A stretch of 64,000 nt of DNA, taken from assembly GCF_013315695.1 (NCBI RefSeq), contig NZ_CP054353.1; one strand, written 5' to 3'. Made by a program: the position numbers. Shown one piece after another: positions 36,001 through 42,000 of the stretch. Each line of letters starts with the position of its first letter. Position 1 is the stretch's first letter. Source of the stretch: Escherichia coli. Its GTDB lineage: Bacteria > Pseudomonadota > Gammaproteobacteria > Enterobacterales > Enterobacteriaceae.

Positions 36001-39000
36001 TTTTTCCGGTTCCTGTTGCGCTACTGGTTCGGATTGTTTCGTTTCTGGCTCGTTTTGTAACGCATTTGGGCTGTTTTGTTCCGCTTTTTGGTCGTTCCGT
36101 TCCGATTCATGCTGGTTCTGGTTCACAGAATCGCGAGTCTGGATCCCCTTGACCCATTTCGGATCATTAGGGTCGCTAATCCCCTCAACAAATTCACCAC
36201 GCGATACAGCAAGTAACTTATCGGCGTCAGGCTGGCTGATATTGGCTGCCTGCATAATTTTGTTTGCTTCGTCAGCGGTGACTTTTACTTGGTTAGCGGA
36301 ACTCACCTGCGACTGAGCATCCAGCGACTGCGCGTTCTGGCCATGTTCAGTTGTATCCGGTTCCATTGTTTCAGTTGTTGCCTGTTCACCTGCCATTGCG
36401 TCAGATGGTTGTGGTTTTTCTTCTTCTGTTTCACGCTCAGTAACCACCTCGCGGTTAATTTCTTCCAGGATATCTTTTTCCGGCGTATGCCGGGCAGCTG
36501 TGAGAGTTTCCTTGCTGGGGTTCTCGTGATCAGTTTCCGTCAAATAGGCGTTGATATACCCCTGAAGGCGTCCCGGGTAGTGATAAAATTCAGGGTGTGC
36601 GCTTCGGATAAGTGCAAAAATAGCGGCGCGGGAATAGTCCAGAATACCCGGGGTTGCACGAAGTGCTGCGGACCATTCTTTGAACGGACTTTCTTTGTTC
36701 AGGACTACTTCTTTTGCGCGACGATAAACGCTGCCCGGAATTTCATAAATATTAAAATCCATCGGAAGTGTGGCTGCTGCAATCTCCACATCCAGTGTGT
36801 CGAGGGTGTGTACTAAATTCGGATTGCGATCGGTTTTGTTCCCACCGCCAGCATTAGCACCGGAAGCCGTGCGGGTGATGCGTGAAACACGATTTCCTTT
36901 CATCCACTCTTTTGTCAGCAGACCCCGATCAGTGTAGTCAGCGTCCAGGTATGCTTCGAAAAAAGCAGTTATTAGTCCCAGGTCTGAATTACCAGGATTA
37001 GGGAAAACTTTGTCAGTGTCACGAACCAGTTTGTGGAGGTCGCGAATCTCCAGCGAGTCGAGCAGACTGGTTTTATGCGAAATAGCCAGGGCAGTAACAG
37101 CCGGTAGTTCTTCAGCCCGTGCAATGTGTAATGCCTGGAGTTCGTCGCGTGAAACGTGCGTTACTGGTTTTTCGCTGCCGTGTTGAGCAAGCCAACGAAT
37201 GGGCAGTTCCTGACCGGAGACAGGCAGAAGCATGCTCTCCTCAATCTCAGTCATGTCTTCGCCGTTGATGTTGGTATTGTCAGTGCTGGCTGGTTTGTCC
37301 TGAACAGAGGGGGAAGGGCCGATAAATGTCATTGTGATGCCATCTTTCCCGCCTTTTTCATAGCGGTTGCAGAATTCAGTATCAAACACGCCTTCTGGCG
37401 GAAGGTCGTCAACAACGGGCAAATTGACGCGGACGGGTTTTTTAAAGTCGTCTTCATCATAATCGTTGTCATCCATTGCGGTAATGCAGCGGGAGATTGC
37501 AACAGATAATTTTTTTGCTGTAGCCCAGTAAAAACCACCTTTAATTCCCAGGCGTTTTCTTACTTTGTCATTTTTTGCTTCGCAATATAGTGCAAATTCT
37601 TCTTTATCAGTGCTCATTATTGGTAAACCTCATCACAGATTTAAGGGTGAACAAATCTCTGCCATTGCTGACATATAAGAATGAAACTGGATATTTATTA
37701 CGGTGCTGTTTTAAAATCCTGCCGGGATTTCGTTATTATCCTGGTGAATAACTTTATCGACCGGATAACAGTTGCCTGGAATTTTCTGTTCGGTTGCTGC
37801 TGCCATACATTCCTGCATTGTTCTGTGAACACTGACTGCAATATCAACTGGCTCTCCGGAAACAAGAAAAACTGTCAGAACAAGCACAAATGCTGAATTC
37901 ATTGTGCACATCCTTTTGGCATCAGACGTAAACGAGCCAGCATTGAAACAATGCATATTTTATTTAATAGCTCCCGTTCTTGTTTTCTCTTGTTAATGGC
38001 ATCTTCAGTAAATACTGGGTTACTGATAGTGACACCAATTTCAAAACAACCTTCAGACGTATTAACGTTTGGTAATAACGTTTTCATTATCGCGTCCTCA
38101 ACAATGAATTTTGTGATGCAGTGCCTGGTGCCTCCAGGTGACGTTAACCAGTTAACAATTAACGCCGGATACAGAGAATCCACCCATAACACTGTTTTTG
38201 GTTTTAACTGTTCCGCGTGCGCTCAGCCGCATTCACCACATCACAAAATTCACTTTAAAAAGGGCGGCAGAGCAGTCACGGAGTAAAACTGATACCGCCA
38301 AACGTCACCAGAAAATTGATAACAGAGGGCGTTGCAGCGGGGTTGTCACTTAAGCGTATGGTCAACCTGACAACCCGGTGTCCTCAACGGGGAAGGAATA
38401 ACCCCGCCATACTTACCGCCGCGCCATTTCGCGGGTTGCCACAACCGGAAGCGCACGGTCGACGAAAATTTAACGACAGGCTATCTATGAACCAGCTACC
38501 TCGCCGTGCGCTTTCGCGTTATGGTCTGACTTTTCATGGAAATATCCTTTCAGTAAACTGTCAGTGCCGGATGCTCACCCGTGTCCGGCGCACGCACTCC
38601 ACCTCACCCGTGGAGAACTCCTTAATTACCAACCTTAGCTTCGTTGGTTAGCTATTAACGCGGGTATGTAATCATTCTGGCAATGCTTAATGCCGCTGCT
38701 TTTTCCAGCCTGGTGATATCCTGCTCCAGAGAGAACAGATTTTCAGCCTGCTTAGCCCTGGCTTCATTAGCCCATTTCAGATCCTGCGCTGCATTAATTT
38801 TCTGGCGCATCCACTCATAAAGTTCATCATCGGTATAGTCTGGCGCGATGATGACAGGTTCTCGTTTCTGCATGTCAGCTCCTTGTGGTTCGCATTGCCT
38901 GCTTTTAACCACGTCAGGCGAGGTGGTATCCTCTGAGGGGTCTGTTACTCGAGAGGAAATTGGTTATGAATACAATCAAGTTTTCTTGCCCAGAATGTGG

Positions 39001-42000
39001 TGGCGAAGTCTTTGACACATCCTTTAAGCCGCAGGGCTCTGACAGTTTCGCGGGAGCCATCTGCAAAAATTGTGGTCACCTTGTAACTGAAGATGAGTCC
39101 TCGCAGTTCGATGACGAAATCGTTGACAATATCTTCGGTGCACTCACCAGAGACTTTCTGAAATAAAGACGCATACCGCTTAGTTACCGCTCTGATAATT
39201 CTTACCTGTCCGGCAATGGCGCTGATATCAATATAAAGCGCCATCGCTGTTTCTTTGCTGATCCCTGGACGCCTTCCATTCTGATGTTTGACTTCGCCCA
39301 CTGAGAAATCCTCTGTTTCCCCTTAACGCCGGGGTAGCGGAACTGTTTGCTGAGAACACCGTGCGGTGTCTTGATGGAGATTAATTTAGAATAACCTAAC
39401 AGATGTGGCAAGTGTTTTTTGTTAGATTGATCTAACAAGAAGAGTGAGGGAATCTAAGTGTCTGAAAGGAGTGTTATTTTATTGATTTGTTTTTACGTGC
39501 TTTAAGCATTTCTTCGAAGAGTTTATTGAAATTCTCTACTCTTGCGCGCATTTCAGACAGCAAGGCTTCCTGCTCGGAGGATGGAAGAGCATCGAATAAT
39601 TCGATCAATTCTTTGTGGCTGGGAGTTAACTCGGTTTCCACATGAAGTTCTTGTGCTGGCACTGGTGCCTTGTCTTCGTCACCAAACATTAGCCATGTAG
39701 GCGAGCACTTCAGCGCATCAGCTAAAGCAAACAACCGCTTCCCGACTGGTTGGGTTTCGTCTCTTTCCCATTGTGAAATTGTGACGTGAGCTACCCCAGC
39801 GAGGCGAGCGGCTTCTCGTTGTGTTAGGCGTAATTCTTTTCGTCGTGCCAGAACTCGCTGGCCTAGGGTTCTTGTATCCATAGTTAGGTAATTCTAATTT
39901 TTCTTGACTTAGGTATCCCGCGCACATTACTGTTAGAAATATCTAACAAGAGGGGGCTTTGATGCTTAAAGTTGACGCAATTACTTTTTTTGGCAGCAAA
40001 ACAAAGCTTGCCAATGCCGCAGGAGTGAAACTGGCAAGTGTTGCTGCATGGGGTGAACTGGTTCCTGAAGGTCGCGCGATGCGCCTGCAAGAGGCATCCG
40101 GCGGGGAACTTCAGTACGACCCCAAAGTTTATGACGAATATCGTAAGGCAAAGCGGGCGGGGCGGTTGAACAATGAAAATCACCCCTGAACAGGTTTGTG
40201 AGGCTCTGGATGCCTGGGTATGTCGACCAGGAATGACACAGGAGCAAGCGACGATATTAATCACGGAAGCATTCTGGGCTCTGAAAGAACGCCCGAACAT
40301 CGATGTTCAACGCGTCACGTTTAATGATGGCGAGGTTGATCAACGGGCGCTGGGCGTTAACCGAGTGAAGATATTCGAACGCTGGAAAGCTATCGACACC
40401 AGGGATAAGCGGAAAAAATTCACGGCGCTGATTCCGGCAATTATGGAGGCTATCCGAATTAGTGATTTCAGGTTGTATCGTGAGATCAGTGATGGAAAAA
40501 GCATTACGTACATGATCGCCGGATTAAACAAAGAATATGGCGATGTGGTGGAGTCCGGGCTGCTTTTTGCGGATCCAGCTGTTGTGGAACGTGAGACTGA
40601 CGAGCTTATAGAAAAAGCTATTGCTTTCAAGCATGCGTATCGTCAGCAATATCAATATTACTTTGCAGATAAACAAATGTCTGCCAGGGGTTTGTATGAG
40701 TATCGATGCACTACGATGGGCTAAAAAGGTGAAAACCGGCAGTTCATCCAGTAAGTCTGTATTGACCTGGCTTGCTGATATGTGCGGTGCCGATTTGTGT
40801 GCATACCCGTCTGTATCTGCACTGGCAGAAGTAACGGAACTAAACAAAAAGACTGTGCAGGACAGCTTACGACACCTGATGGAGATTGGGTTAATTGTTG
40901 ATACCGGTGAGAGAAAAGGCAGAACAAAGCAAATTGTGGTGTACCGACTTATCGGTGTAGAAGAAAGTGTTGCCGAGCCTGAATACACCCAAAAACGGGA
41001 GTCTTTAAAGGTGGGTAAAATTGGTGCTGTTAATAAAAACAGTACCGAAAATGGTTATGTTTCAGCACAAAACAGACCCAAAAACGGAACTCTTAGCTGC
41101 ATGGAAAATAACCAAAGACACCCAAATTTTCCATCAAAGACACCCAAAAACGGATCACGGAACCCAAAGGAACCCAAAGATCTAAACCCCACACATAACG
41201 CACGCGAGAGTGCTCCGACCAGTGAGCAGGAAGTTTTGTCGTTACAGGCAGCACCCCTTGTATTCCTGGATGGCCTGAGCGAACCCATCGGAAAATTTCC
41301 GATGACCGATAGCTGGTATCCGTCACGGGATTTTCGACGACGGGCTGCGTTGTGGGGGATGGCTTTGCCGGAGACAGAATTTACACCTGCTGAACTTGCC
41401 GCCTTCCGGGACTACTGGGCAGCGGAGGGGAAAGTGTTTACGCAGATTCAGTGGGAGCAGAAATTCGCCCGTCACGTAAATCACGTCAGGGCGCAGGTTA
41501 AACCAGTCAGCAAGGGGGTAAACCATGCAGCAGCACCAGGTGGCACCGCATCACGGGCAGTTCAGGAAATTCGGGCAGCACGTGAGCAGTGGGAACGTGA
41601 AAACGGATTTATCAGCGACGGAAACGGTCTGGAAGCTGTGGGAACTCATGGGGGAGGTTTATTCGAACCGCTGGACCCAGAAGAACGGGGCCGCACCTTC
41701 GAAGCTCTGGATTGCACAGATTGGCGCGATGACTGAGCAGCAAATCCGACAGGTCTGCCGCCAGTGCATGGACCGCTGCCGGGCGGGTGAAACATGGCCT
41801 CCGGACCTGGCTGAGTTTGTGGCGCTGATTTCAGAAAGCGGGGCCAATCCATTTGGCCTGACGGTGGATGCTGTGATGGAGGAGTACCGCCGCTGGCGTG
41901 ATGAGTCCTGGCGATATGACGGAAGCGACAAATATCCGTGGCCTCAGCCTGTGCTGTACCACATCTGCCTCGAAATGCGTACCAGAGGGATTGAGCGCCA

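What the first reader, a model, noticed from the sequence alone, without database searches (positions are those of the whole stretch)
38945..39301. Fully overlapping antisense ORF pair in the immunity operon
A 118-aa minus-strand ORF (co-oriented with dicA, RBS gagga) and a 66-aa plus-strand ORF with two CxxC pairs (RBS gaggaaa) occupy the same DNA. Both have plausible translation signals but only one is likely real, or this is a genuine antisense-encoded pair.
Basis: seen in the sequence. Interest (0 to 1): 0.3.

Follow-up and report, generated by a model that had tools for sequence, protein, structure and literature searches.

The report
Conserved antisense gene pair in prophage
In the control region of a lambda-like E. 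coli prophage, the same 200 bases appear to encode two different small proteins, one on each strand, and related phages from several bacterial genera have kept both reading frames intact, which is a rare and so far unreported candidate for true two-strand coding.

Summary
A 66-codon plus ORF (38966-39166, CPEC…CKNC zinc ribbon) lies wholly inside a 118-codon minus ORF (38945-39301), codon against codon.

An ORF pair like this is common by chance; what matters here is its conservation.

- **Distribution:** both ORFs are intact in nine DNA-checked lineages (Escherichia, Citrobacter, Klebsiella, Enterobacter and metagenomes), down to 35-45% protein identity.
- **Plus frame:** within the overlap, substitutions follow the plus frame (pos1/2/3 = 68/29/115; omega about 0.24).
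- **Minus frame:** immediately after the plus stop codon the pattern switches to the minus frame (minus pos3/2/1 = 68/31/40).
- **Stop avoidance:** each frame avoids the codons that would create stops in the other. Simulations with selection on only one frame reject both single-gene models (P about 0.001 or less).
- **Minus ORF:** it occupies the place of ydfA as first gene of the DicA-repressed dicBF (PL-like) operon. It has a conserved Shine-Dalgarno sequence and start codon, and AlphaFold2 predicts a fold (pLDDT 84).
- **Plus ORF:** it belongs to NCBIfam NF047912 and has its own promoter-like and terminator-like elements.

Best reading (about 0.7): both are genes, probably expressed in opposite prophage states. 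Neither protein has a known function, and I have no expression data.

The parts
38945..39301 (-). Minus ORF, 118 aa from GTG 39301 (99 aa from the internal ATG at 39244). PHROG 21318, unknown function. First gene of the dicBF-type operon.
   Evidence: Searches give the ORF; phrog_21318, E 1.7e-65; open in all 50 unique homologous sequences; minus-frame substitution pattern in the non-overlapping 26 codons. AF2 pLDDT 83.7; the GTG is ATG in L098.
38966..39166 (+). Plus ORF, 66 aa. Zinc ribbon (CPEC…CKNC) followed by an acidic tail predicted with low confidence. NCBIfam NF047912, 'ECs_2282 family putative zinc-binding protein'.
   Evidence: 57.3 bits against a cutoff of 37; pos1/2/3 changes 68/29/115, omega 0.07-0.45; four Cys invariant. 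AF2 pLDDT 65.8, tail below 50.
39309..39314 (-). Shine-Dalgarno sequence AGAGGA of the minus ORF, 7 nt before the GTG.
   Evidence: Sequences printed show an SD-like motif 4-10 nt before the start codon of the minus ORF in most lineages examined; L081-type ORFs start further upstream and were not inspected.
38952..38958 (+). Shine-Dalgarno sequence AGAGGAA of the plus ORF, 7 nt before the ATG.
   Evidence: GAGGA, AAGGA or GAGGAGG kept at the same distance in all lineages, although the surrounding sequence diverges and lies outside the minus ORF in most of them.
39383..39411 (-). Sigma-70-like promoter (TTGCCA-17-TAAATT), counterpart of the dicB-operon promoter of Qin.
   Evidence: pattern match only; aligned with TTGACC-17-TAATCT of K-12. 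PMC6832061: DicA represses the PL-like dicBF promoter.
39302..39377 (-). Operon leader shared with K-12 Qin, where it precedes ydfA. The minus ORF starts where ydfA starts.
   Evidence: about 65 nt nearly identical between the window, K-12 and the O157 prophage. K-12 annotation.
38924..38932 (+). TGgTATCCT, an extended -10-like motif 33 nt upstream of the plus ATG. Candidate promoter of the plus gene.
   Evidence: Read from the sequence. GGTGGTAT is invariant across lineages whose proteins are 45% identical. It was not flagged by the consensus scan, so it is an inference.
38897..38927 (.). Left edge of the conserved cassette. Interleaved inverted repeats: GCCTG 38897-38901 with CAGGC 38915-38919, and ACCAC 38908-38912 with GTGGT 38923-38927.
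   Evidence: flanks to the left are unrelated between lineages. L100 has GCCGGG/CCCGGC (one compensatory pair). There is too little variation to test a structure.
39216..39258 (+). Hairpin ATGGCGCT/AGCGCCAT followed by the T-rich tail CGCTGTTTCTTTGC, 50-90 nt after the plus stop. Terminator-like for the plus transcript. Its 3' arm covers the internal ATG (39244) of the minus ORF.
   Evidence: a hairpin at the same place in 10 lineages, canonical in L096 (11-bp stem + T8); 9 pairs, 2 of them with compensatory changes.
39005..39005 (.). Site of the natural nonsense allele of the plus ORF (GAA to TAA, codon 14) in O157-type prophages. The window carries the intact G.
   Evidence: 16 of 80 IMG/VR loci carry it; in those genomes PGAP annotates the minus ORF (99 aa) instead.
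39474..39881 (-). DicA-like repressor (context).
   Evidence: NF007257, 224 bits.
38262..38873 (-). Downstream operon members (context): ydfC 38655-38873 and DicF RNA 38262-38313.
   Evidence: annotation of an identical genome. RF00039, 76.7 bits.

Best explanation
Both ORFs are real protein-coding genes that share the same DNA on opposite strands. They travel together as one roughly 400-bp cassette among lambdoid prophages of Enterobacteriaceae.

Shown:
- Both frames are kept open, and both carry signs of purifying selection, across all known relatives.
- The minus gene sits at the head of the DicA-repressed, PL-like dicBF operon, where ydfA-ydfB sit in K-12.
- In other phages the minus gene is likewise always co-oriented with the flanking early operon.

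Inferred:
- The minus protein (a predicted alpha-alpha-beta-beta-alpha fold, function unknown) is made when the early operon is derepressed.
- The plus gene (a 66-aa zinc ribbon with an acidic tail) is an independent, moron-like unit. It has its own extended -10-type promoter just beyond the minus stop codon and a hairpin/T-tail terminator that ends over the minus gene's translation start.
- The plus gene is expressed when the operon is silent, that is, in the lysogen. Lambda sieB likewise lies on the strand opposite PL (its expression state is from my recollection, not checked).
- The two promoters face each other about 460 bp apart. Expression should therefore be mutually exclusive, through transcriptional interference and antisense pairing of the plus mRNA with the 5' end of the minus mRNA.

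Inside the overlap the plus frame is the more strongly constrained. The minus frame tolerates mostly conservative first-position changes.
For: Distribution
- Both ORFs are intact in every DNA-checked lineage: E. coli sublineages, L083/84, L081, L087, L088, L099, L100 and L128. The plus ORF is always 66 codons, down to 35-45% identity.

Selection, plus frame
- Parsimony changes in the overlap are 68/29/115 at plus pos1/2/3 (p = 4e-12).
- NG86 omega is 0.07-0.45.
- Changes that are silent in the minus frame are biased towards conservative plus replacements (P = 0.001).

Selection, minus frame
- Right after the plus stop the pattern flips to minus pos3/2/1 = 68/31/40 (p = 3e-4).
- There is an excess of minus-synonymous changes (85:137 against an expected 0.285; p = 0.017 when each event is counted once).

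Reciprocal stop avoidance
- Plus CTN/TCN codons are A-ending in 0/34 cases, against 17/83 in the other four-fold boxes (p = 0.0017).
- The minus frame in the overlap gives 1/26 against 18/84 (p = 0.029), yet it uses TTA/CTA/TCA in 5/21 cases outside the overlap.
- Restricted by how each sequence was found, the values are p = 0.007 and p = 0.012.

Simulations on the tree
- Plus-only selection keeps the minus frame open in all 36 independently found tips in 0/2000 runs.
- Minus-only selection keeps the plus frame open in the 6 minus-found tips in 0.0005-0.001 of runs, and never keeps the four Cys.

Signals
- SD and start codon are conserved for both ORFs, and GTG is replaced by ATG in L098.
- The minus ORF starts exactly where ydfA starts, after a shared leader.
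- The plus gene has a terminator-like hairpin with 2 compensatory pairs.

Context
- The minus ORF is co-oriented with the early operon both on the repressor side and on the cro side (L083/L084).
- It is fused in frame to a phrog_23433 domain in L085-87.
- Lambda sieB is a precedent for a gene on the strand opposite PL, and a SieB homologue lies just upstream of the plus ORF, co-oriented with it, in L089.

Fold
- Minus protein: pLDDT 83.7, pTM 0.70.
- Plus protein: zinc-ribbon part 72-84.
Against: - There is no transcription, translation or phenotype data for either strand.
- Within the overlap, direct evidence for amino-acid-level selection on the minus frame is weak. Naive minus omega is 0.4-0.9, and 1.9 for the closest pair.
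- The bias of plus-synonymous changes towards conservative minus replacements is only P = 0.06 at kappa 3, and 0.19 at kappa 6, when each event is counted once.
- Plus synonymous divergence (mean pS 0.56) is barely lower than minus pS outside the overlap (0.62).
- The non-overlapping stretch is only 26 codons. Its omega is high (0.3-0.7), and a conserved hairpin occupies a third of it.
- The AF2 models vary (83.7 down to 43.9), come from a 16-sequence alignment, and no control on a known non-coding antisense frame was possible.
- The plus gene is knocked out in O157-type prophages, so it is dispensable there.
- The promoter of the plus gene is a motif reading, not a scan hit.
- Recombination inflates event counts on the tree.
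- Some sequences were found through one of the two proteins.
Confidence: 0.68

Rival explanations
1. Only the plus zinc-ribbon gene is functional. The minus ORF is a passenger: an open frame that this antisense register readily produces. It may even be translated, because it sits behind the operon's leader and SD, but its sequence is not under selection.
For: - The plus frame dominates the overlap.
- Naive minus omega in the overlap is 0.4-1.9.
- The conservative-replacement test is borderline.
- PGAP prefers the plus ORF whenever it is intact.
- Long antisense ORFs are common in this window.
Against: - The minus frame is open in all 50 unique sequences, whereas plus-only simulations leave 12-17% of tips open and never all of them.
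- The plus frame avoids exactly the codons that would be minus stops (p = 0.002-0.007), yet uses TCA or CTA at codon 2, where the minus ORF ends in L083/84 and L099.
- The minus-frame periodicity and the synonymous excess lie outside the overlap.
- SD and start codon are conserved in most lineages examined (L081-type not inspected), and GTG is replaced by ATG in L098.
- A confident AF2 fold is predicted.
- The ORF is fused in frame to another phage domain.
Confidence: 0.2
2. Only the minus ORF is a gene. The plus ORF, with its two CxxC pairs, is a chance by-product of the antisense frame.
For: - The minus ORF is the longer one, lies in the operon's orientation, and is the one called by Prodigal-type callers and in isolated phages.
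- The plus ORF carries nonsense alleles in O157-type prophages and in L074.
Against: - In the overlap, substitutions peak at plus position 3, which is minus position 1. That is the opposite of what a minus-only gene gives.
- Plus omega is about 0.24.
- The four Cys are invariant in all lineages, against 0/1500 in minus-only simulations.
- The plus frame is open in all six sequences found through the minus protein (P about 0.001).
- The length is a constant 66 codons, and ATG and SD are conserved even where they lie outside the minus ORF.
- The curated NCBIfam model is passed.
Confidence: 0.04
3. The plus-strand transcript acts mainly as a cis-antisense regulatory RNA of the dicBF-type operon, comparable to lambda oop against cII, and its ORF is incidental or secondary. 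The minus gene is the coding one.
For: - The promoter-like and terminator-like elements frame a roughly 320-nt plus transcript that is fully complementary to the 5' part of the minus mRNA, including its start region.
- The facing promoters are about 460 bp apart.
Against: An RNA-only role does not explain the plus-frame codon periodicity, the invariant Cys, the conserved SD/ATG/stop positions or the avoidance of plus stops. The two roles are not mutually exclusive, and the antisense effect is part of the best explanation.
Confidence: 0.08

Closest known systems
Antisense overlapping genes described in E. coli O157:H7 (for example oloz0137, oloz4542 and oloz5029; Graf et al. 2022, PMC9927249)
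   Same: - A long, non-trivial antisense overlap of two protein-coding ORFs in E. coli. One of the published cases is also in the -1 register.
- Each ORF has its own promoter, SD and terminator.
   Different: - The published cases are supported by RNA-seq, ribosome profiling and competitive-growth phenotypes. This pair has none of these.
- The published overlapping genes are taxonomically narrow, while their 'mother genes' occur widely without them. Here the two partners have the same distribution and are both intact in every lineage, down to 35-45% identity.
- Here the embedded ORF is the more strongly constrained of the two.
Lambda sieB: a gene that lies on the strand opposite to the PL operon (orientation checked; expression state recalled)
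   Same: - It is a small accessory gene inside the leftward early region but on the other strand (lambda sieB 34482..35036 +, between N and ral).
- A SieB homologue lies directly upstream of the plus ORF, co-oriented with it, in L089.
   Different: - Lambda sieB occupies its own DNA and no PL-operon gene is encoded opposite it. Here the opposite strand is itself an ORF under selection.
- There is no sequence similarity. Expression of the plus gene in lysogens is inferred, not shown.
Phage morons (independent promoter-gene-terminator units inserted into phage operons; from established knowledge of lambdoid phage genomics)
   Same: The plus ORF is framed by a conserved -10-like motif and a hairpin/T-tail. 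The cassette is present or replaced (ydfA-ydfB in K-12) between conserved neighbours.
   Different: Morons sit between genes. This one is nested inside, and antisense to, another gene that moves with it. Promoter and terminator activity have not been tested.
dicBF operon of the Qin prophage (ydfA-ydfB-ydfC-dicF-dicB), repressed by DicA
   Same: - The same repressor family, promoter position and leader.
- The same ydfC, DicF and dicB, and the same downstream exonuclease.
- The promoter is PL-like and repressed by DicA (PMC6832061).
   Different: The first two genes, ydfA (DUF1391) and ydfB, are replaced by the two-strand cassette. Neither cassette protein is similar to YdfA or YdfB.
Lar-family restriction-alleviation proteins and other small phage zinc ribbons
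   Same: A protein of about 60 aa with two CxxC pairs, encoded in the early region of a lambdoid prophage. There are weak profile hits (TIGR03655 E 0.014; phrog_6422 E 0.0098).
   Different: Scores are far below the family cutoffs (15.7 against 39.6 bits). Such cross-hits are typical of any zinc ribbon. The best non-self relative is the N-terminal part of phrog_4852, of unknown function (E 1e-9).

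Membership tests
NCBIfam NF047912 (ECs_2282 family putative zinc-binding protein), plus ORF | Whole-protein HMM score at or above the curated cutoff (37 bits) | tested here: met
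   57.3 bits, E 1e-15, profile positions 1-56 of 60. PGAP gives this name to the identical protein WP_001092153.1.
NCBIfam NF047912 (ECs_2282 family putative zinc-binding protein), plus ORF | Two CxxC pairs that could bind zinc | tested here: met
   C8, C11, C33 and C36 are invariant in 12 diverse members. Metal binding itself cannot be tested here.
PHROG 21318 (phage protein family of unknown function), minus ORF | Profile match over the full length of the family model | tested here: met
   E 1.7e-65, residues 20-118 on profile positions 1-99 of 99. Divergent members L085 and P0039 also match.
Antisense overlapping protein-coding gene pair | Both reading frames kept intact across homologues beyond what selection on one frame gives | tested here: met
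   Both frames are open in all lineages. Single-frame simulations give P of 0.001 or less. Stop avoidance is reciprocal.
Antisense overlapping protein-coding gene pair | Purifying selection at the amino-acid level on both frames | tested here: inconclusive
   Plus frame: clear (omega about 0.24). Minus frame: clear only outside the overlap. Inside the overlap it is borderline (P = 0.06).
Antisense overlapping protein-coding gene pair | Both strands transcribed and both ORFs translated | not testable with these tools
   No expression data are available. No paper was found for the locus tag, the accessions or the family ids.
Moron (independent transcription unit in a phage operon), plus ORF | Own promoter upstream | tested here: inconclusive
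   TGgTATCCT at 38924-38932 is conserved as GGTGGTAT in divergent lineages. The consensus scan did not report a promoter there.
Moron (independent transcription unit in a phage operon), plus ORF | Own factor-independent terminator downstream | tested here: inconclusive
   A hairpin followed by a T-rich tail occurs at the same place in 10 lineages, with 2 compensatory pairs. It is canonical only in some of them (L096, L099). In the window the loop is 13 nt and the scan did not flag it.
dicBF-type (PL-like) early operon, minus ORF as first gene | DicA-family repressor, promoter and leader homologous to Qin, with DicF and dicB downstream | tested here: met
   DicA NF007257 224 bits and DicC NF007282 167 bits. 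Leader alignment. DicF RF00039 76.7 bits. dicB and ydfC are annotated in an identical genome.
Lar-family restriction alleviation protein (TIGR03655), plus ORF | HMM score at or above the curated cutoff (39.6 bits) | tested here: not met
   15.7 bits, E 0.014.
Known anti-phage defence proteins (PADLOC), both ORFs | Significant match to a defence-system model | tested here: not met
   Only zinc-ribbon cross-hits with E of 0.0006 or weaker, and nothing for the minus protein.

The most novel reading that the evidence does not exclude
The cassette is an obligate two-strand coding module in which each strand serves one of the two prophage states. The zinc-ribbon protein is made from its own promoter while the repressor keeps the early operon silent. 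The opposite-strand protein is made on induction. The facing promoters, together with full-length RNA complementarity, make the two products mutually exclusive. That would be a compact bistable unit that has been co-inherited and moved between the left and right early operons of lambdoid phages in several genera.
Probability: 0.3. Interest if true: 0.8.

Novelty: new member of a known kind. Interest (0 to 1): 0.55.

Why it matters
Whether long antisense overlaps in bacteria and phages truly encode two proteins is disputed. Most proposed cases are young, narrowly distributed, and rest on expression data without clear evolutionary support.

This pair is the reverse case. Its evolutionary support is unusually clean: both frames are intact across genera, the codon periodicity switches at the inner stop codon, and stop avoidance is reciprocal. 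It has never been examined experimentally.

It is small and sits in a genetically tractable E. coli prophage region. It also offers ready-made strand-specific knock-outs, namely natural nonsense alleles and mutations that are silent in the other frame. That makes it a good test case for dual coding and for how two proteins co-evolve in one sequence.

There is a practical point as well. Annotation pipelines currently report one ORF or the other depending on a single nucleotide, so one of the two proteins is missing from every genome annotation I inspected (an E. coli chromosome, an O157 chromosome and one isolated phage).

Tried and rejected
- **Genome-collection scans.** Two scans of the GTDB species-representative genomes found nothing, one with peptide patterns from the minus alignment and one with a conserved 23-mer. 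The metagenome and IMG/VR 23-mer scans added only close variants of two lineages.
- **Function by structure or sequence.**
  - PDB sequence and profile searches for both proteins gave nothing better than E 0.2.
  - Pfam has no family for the minus ORF and only sub-threshold zinc-ribbon hits for the plus ORF.
  - PADLOC gave nothing. Lar membership is rejected on score.
- **Distant relatives.** An exhaustive profile search with the minus alignment found only 7 clusters at 50% identity, so the family is narrow. There is no relative that lacks the antisense partner. The two most distant members, P0038 and P0039, both carry an intact zinc-ribbon ORF opposite.
- **Literature.** There were no hits for ECs2282, the WP accessions, phrog_21318 or NF047912.
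- **Selection tests that did not hold up well.**
  - The BLOSUM test for conservative minus replacements was significant when all tree events were counted. It fell to P = 0.06-0.19 when each event was counted once and kappa was 3 or more, so I treat it as suggestive only.
  - Naive pairwise dN/dS in the overlap is misleading. Another antisense frame, which is not an ORF, also gives a low ratio as a by-product of plus-frame selection.
- **Structured element at the cassette's left edge.** I considered a pseudoknot. With one compensatory pair in one lineage it cannot be tested.
- **Other readings considered.**
  - N-like antiterminator for the minus protein: there is no arginine-rich N-terminus, and the N-terminal extension is absent in most lineages.
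  - Type I toxin-antitoxin: neither protein looks like a small hydrophobic peptide, judged by eye from the sequences; no transmembrane prediction was run.

Full report
**1. What is in the sequence**

- The minus strand has an ORF at 38945..39301 (118 aa, GTG start; an internal ATG at 39244 gives 99 aa).
- The plus strand has an ORF at 38966..39166 (66 aa from the ATG) with CPEC and CKNC. It is wholly nested in the minus ORF.
- Both ORFs have a Shine-Dalgarno motif 7 nt upstream: AGAGGA at 39314-39309 and AGAGGAA at 38952-38958.
- The two frames are in exact reverse-complement register. Plus codon position 3 is minus position 1, plus position 1 is minus position 3, and the two second positions coincide.
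- In this register only TTA, CTA and TCA in one frame make stops in the other, so long antisense ORFs arise easily. In 36500-42000 more than a dozen ORFs of 60-175 aa lie antisense to obvious genes. The pair by itself is therefore unremarkable; only comparative evidence can decide.

**2. Context**

An identical stretch in E. coli strain 1436 is annotated, in the window's leftward direction, as DicA-like repressor, [the pair], ydfC, dicB, a DUF1482 protein and an exonuclease. A DicC/Cro-like gene, a YdaT-like gene and replication genes run the other way.

- DicA and DicC pass their NCBIfam cutoffs.
- DicF RNA is at 38262-38313 (-).
- In K-12 Qin the same frame holds ydfA and ydfB instead of the pair.
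- A leader of about 65 nt is nearly identical between the window, K-12 and an O157 prophage. The minus ORF's GTG lies where ydfA's ATG lies.
- A sigma-70-like site (TTGCCA-17-TAAATT, 39411..39383, minus strand) aligns with the Qin promoter. That promoter is PL-like and repressed by DicA (PMC6832061).

The minus ORF is therefore the first gene of the dicBF-type early operon, not part of the repressor's transcript.

**3. How databases treat the pair**

- PGAP names the plus ORF 'ECs_2282 family putative zinc-binding protein' (NF047912, 57.3 bits against a cutoff of 37).
- In O157-type prophages a G to T change at 39005 turns plus codon 14 into TAA. There PGAP annotates the 99-aa minus ORF as hypothetical.
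- Prodigal-type callers and the authors of an isolated phage genome call the 118-aa minus ORF.
- PHROGs has a family for the minus protein (phrog_21318, E 1.7e-65). It has only a weak link for the plus protein, to the N-terminus of phrog_4852 (E 1e-9).
- I found no paper that mentions the locus tag, the accessions or the family ids.

**4. Relatives**

Protein searches found both proteins down to about 60% identity in Citrobacter, Klebsiella and Enterobacter. An exhaustive profile search with the minus alignment found only seven 50%-identity clusters. A profile search with the plus alignment added a few more lineages.

I fetched DNA for 80 IMG/VR loci, 21 loci through exact proteins, 23 through a conserved 23-mer and two more from IMG/VR.

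- After removing duplicates there are 50 unique sequences of the 279-nt block, in nine deep lineages.
- In every one the minus frame is open.
- The plus ORF is exactly 66 codons with its four Cys, apart from the O157 nonsense allele and a second nonsense allele in L074.
- This includes the most distant members (L099, L100, L128), where both proteins are only 35-56% identical to the window's.
- One locus, L103, is frameshifted in both frames.

**5. Selection**

On a neighbour-joining tree of 40 unique sequences, parsimony changes were counted by codon position.

| Region | Changes | Frame they follow | p |
|---|---|---|---|
| Plus codons 2-66 (overlap) | plus pos1/2/3 = 68/29/115 | plus frame | 4e-12 |
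| 26 codons just after the plus stop | minus pos3/2/1 = 68/31/40 | minus frame | 3e-4 |

- The signal after the plus stop is also present in the 16 codons that lie outside a conserved hairpin (49/23/25, read).
- Pairwise NG86 gives plus omega of 0.07-0.45 in the overlap. Minus omega is 0.15-0.5 outside the overlap for pairs that are not saturated.
- Outside the overlap, minus-synonymous changes are in excess: 85:137 against an expected fraction of 0.285, and p = 0.017 when each event is counted once.
- Inside the overlap the minus frame is weakly constrained. Naive omega is 0.4-0.9, and the bias of plus-silent changes towards conservative minus replacements is only P = 0.06 at kappa 3.
- The converse test for the plus protein gives P = 0.001.
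- The nine bases TGTGGTCAC (plus CGH, minus VTT) are identical in all nine lineage representatives aligned, although most other amino-acid-invariant plus codons vary at their silent site.

**6. Keeping both frames open**

- Among distinct (column, codon) pairs, plus CTN/TCN codons are never A-ending (0/34), against 17/83 in the other four-fold boxes (p = 0.0017).
- TCA and CTA do occur at plus codon 2, exactly where the minus ORF ends in L083/84 and L099.
- The minus frame avoids TTA/CTA/TCA inside the overlap, apart from the two pseudogene alleles. It uses them in 5/21 cases outside.
- Restricted to sequences that were not found through the frame being tested, the p values are 0.007 and 0.012.
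- Simulations on the tree, scaled to the observed plus third-position divergence, gave the following.
  - With selection on the plus frame only, the minus frame stays open in all 36 independently found tips in 0/2000 runs (overlap alone 0.002-0.0065; non-overlap alone 0.04-0.08).
  - With selection on the minus frame only, the plus frame stays open in the six minus-found tips in 0.0005-0.001 of runs, and the four Cys are never all kept.
- Caveats: uniform mutation, a consensus root, recombination among prophages, and a small number of deep lineages.

**7. Signals and structure**

- Most lineages inspected have an SD-like motif 4-10 nt before the minus start codon (L081-type not inspected), and the GTG of the window is ATG in L098.
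- All lineages keep an SD at the same distance before the plus ATG, even where that region lies beyond the minus stop.
- Upstream of the plus SD, GGTGGTAT is invariant across lineages. In the window it reads TGgTATCCT (38924-38932), an extended -10-like motif 33 nt from the ATG. This is my reading of the sequence, not a scan hit.
- A hairpin followed by a T-rich tail lies 50-90 nt after the plus stop in all ten lineages examined (window 39216-39258). Two of its pairs show compensatory changes. Its 3' arm and tail cover the start region of the minus ORF.
- The conserved cassette begins abruptly at GCCTG (38897). To the left, the flanks of different lineages are unrelated.
- AlphaFold2 gives the minus protein a compact helix-helix-hairpin-helix fold (pLDDT 83.7, pTM 0.70; the five models range from 83.7 to 43.9). 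It has no structural relative.
- AlphaFold2 gives the plus protein a zinc-ribbon core at 72-84 and a low-confidence acidic tail.

**8. Gene order elsewhere**

- The minus ORF is always co-oriented with the flanking early operon. It lies downstream of the repressor in most phages. In L083/L084 it lies downstream of cro, ahead of KilA-N and the replication genes.
- In L085-87 and related loci it is fused in frame to a phrog_23433 domain, giving 174 aa.
- In L089 a SieB homologue lies just upstream of the plus ORF on the same strand. Lambda's own sieB is on the strand opposite to PL.

**9. Interpretation**

Each single-gene model fails in a different part of the locus. I therefore favour two real genes (about 0.7).

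- Plus gene: very likely real (about 0.9).
- Minus gene: probably real (about 0.75). It rests on several moderate and partly dependent tests, plus context and a predicted fold.

The proposed mechanism is inference from anatomy and from lambda precedent; nothing here measures expression. It has three parts:

- the minus protein is made on derepression of the early operon;
- the plus protein is made from its own unit when the operon is silent;
- the two are mutually exclusive, through facing promoters and RNA complementarity.

Neither protein has an identifiable function.

**10. Novelty**

Antisense overlapping genes are a known but contested kind. Published E. coli cases are young and backed by expression data (PMC9927249). 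This pair is old relative to its family, co-inherited, mobile as a unit and unstudied. I class it as a new member of a known kind, of moderate to good interest, mainly as a clean test case.

Noticed in passing
window 38262-38313 (-) and 38055-38264 (-): DicF RNA is present (RF00039, 76.7 bits). A weak STnc100-like match, below the gathering score, covers the stretch leading into dicB.
   Followed up: partly
window 38897-38927: The conserved cassette starts abruptly at GCCTG. Two interleaved inverted repeats (GCCTG/CAGGC and ACCAC/GTGGT) are kept across lineages, and L100 has GCCGGG/CCCGGC instead. On the minus RNA this would be a pseudoknot-like fold with an A-rich third loop, right after the minus stop codon. 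Variation is too small to test it.
   Followed up: partly
window 38929-38957: The hairpin TCCTCT/AGAGGA includes the plus ORF's Shine-Dalgarno sequence. Other lineages have TCTTGG/CCAAGA at the same place, so the pairing is kept with different bases. Its 5' arm overlaps the proposed -10 motif, so the two readings compete.
   Followed up: no
window 39005; L002, L059, L064, L066, L072 groups; L074: There are two natural nonsense alleles of the plus ORF. Codon 14 GAA to TAA occurs in O157-type prophages (16 of 80 IMG/VR loci). L074 translates to only 43 residues (stop at codon 44); the base change was not read. No allele disrupting the minus frame was seen.
   Followed up: partly
L085, L086, L087, L106, L129 (minus ORF region): The minus ORF is extended to 174 aa by an in-frame N-terminal domain that matches phrog_23433 (E 5e-18). 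The L081-type lineage carries a shorter conserved N-terminal extension with a CKSC motif.
   Followed up: partly
L091-L096, between repressor and cassette: Toxin-antitoxin modules (HigB/HTH in L091; PaaA2/ParE in L093-L096) are inserted between the repressor gene and the cassette in some E. coli-type prophages.
   Followed up: no
L083 and L084: In these Citrobacter and Klebsiella prophages the cassette lies in the rightward early operon, just after the cro-like gene. The minus ORF is still co-oriented with the operon and ends at plus codon 2 (TCA).
   Followed up: partly
window 39343-39356 and about 39418-39435: The shared operon leader contains the palindrome ACACCGCACGGTGT. Upstream of the promoter-like site lies TGTTAGATCAATCTAACA, an operator-like inverted repeat that has a TTAG…CTAA counterpart in K-12.
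   Followed up: no
L103: This metagenomic copy is frameshifted in both frames at once. It is either a decayed cassette or an assembly error.
   Followed up: no
window 38655-38912 (-): the ORF listing extends ydfC to a GTG at 38912 (85 aa). The annotated and conserved start is the ATG at 38873 (72 aa), preceded by AAGGAG.
   Followed up: no
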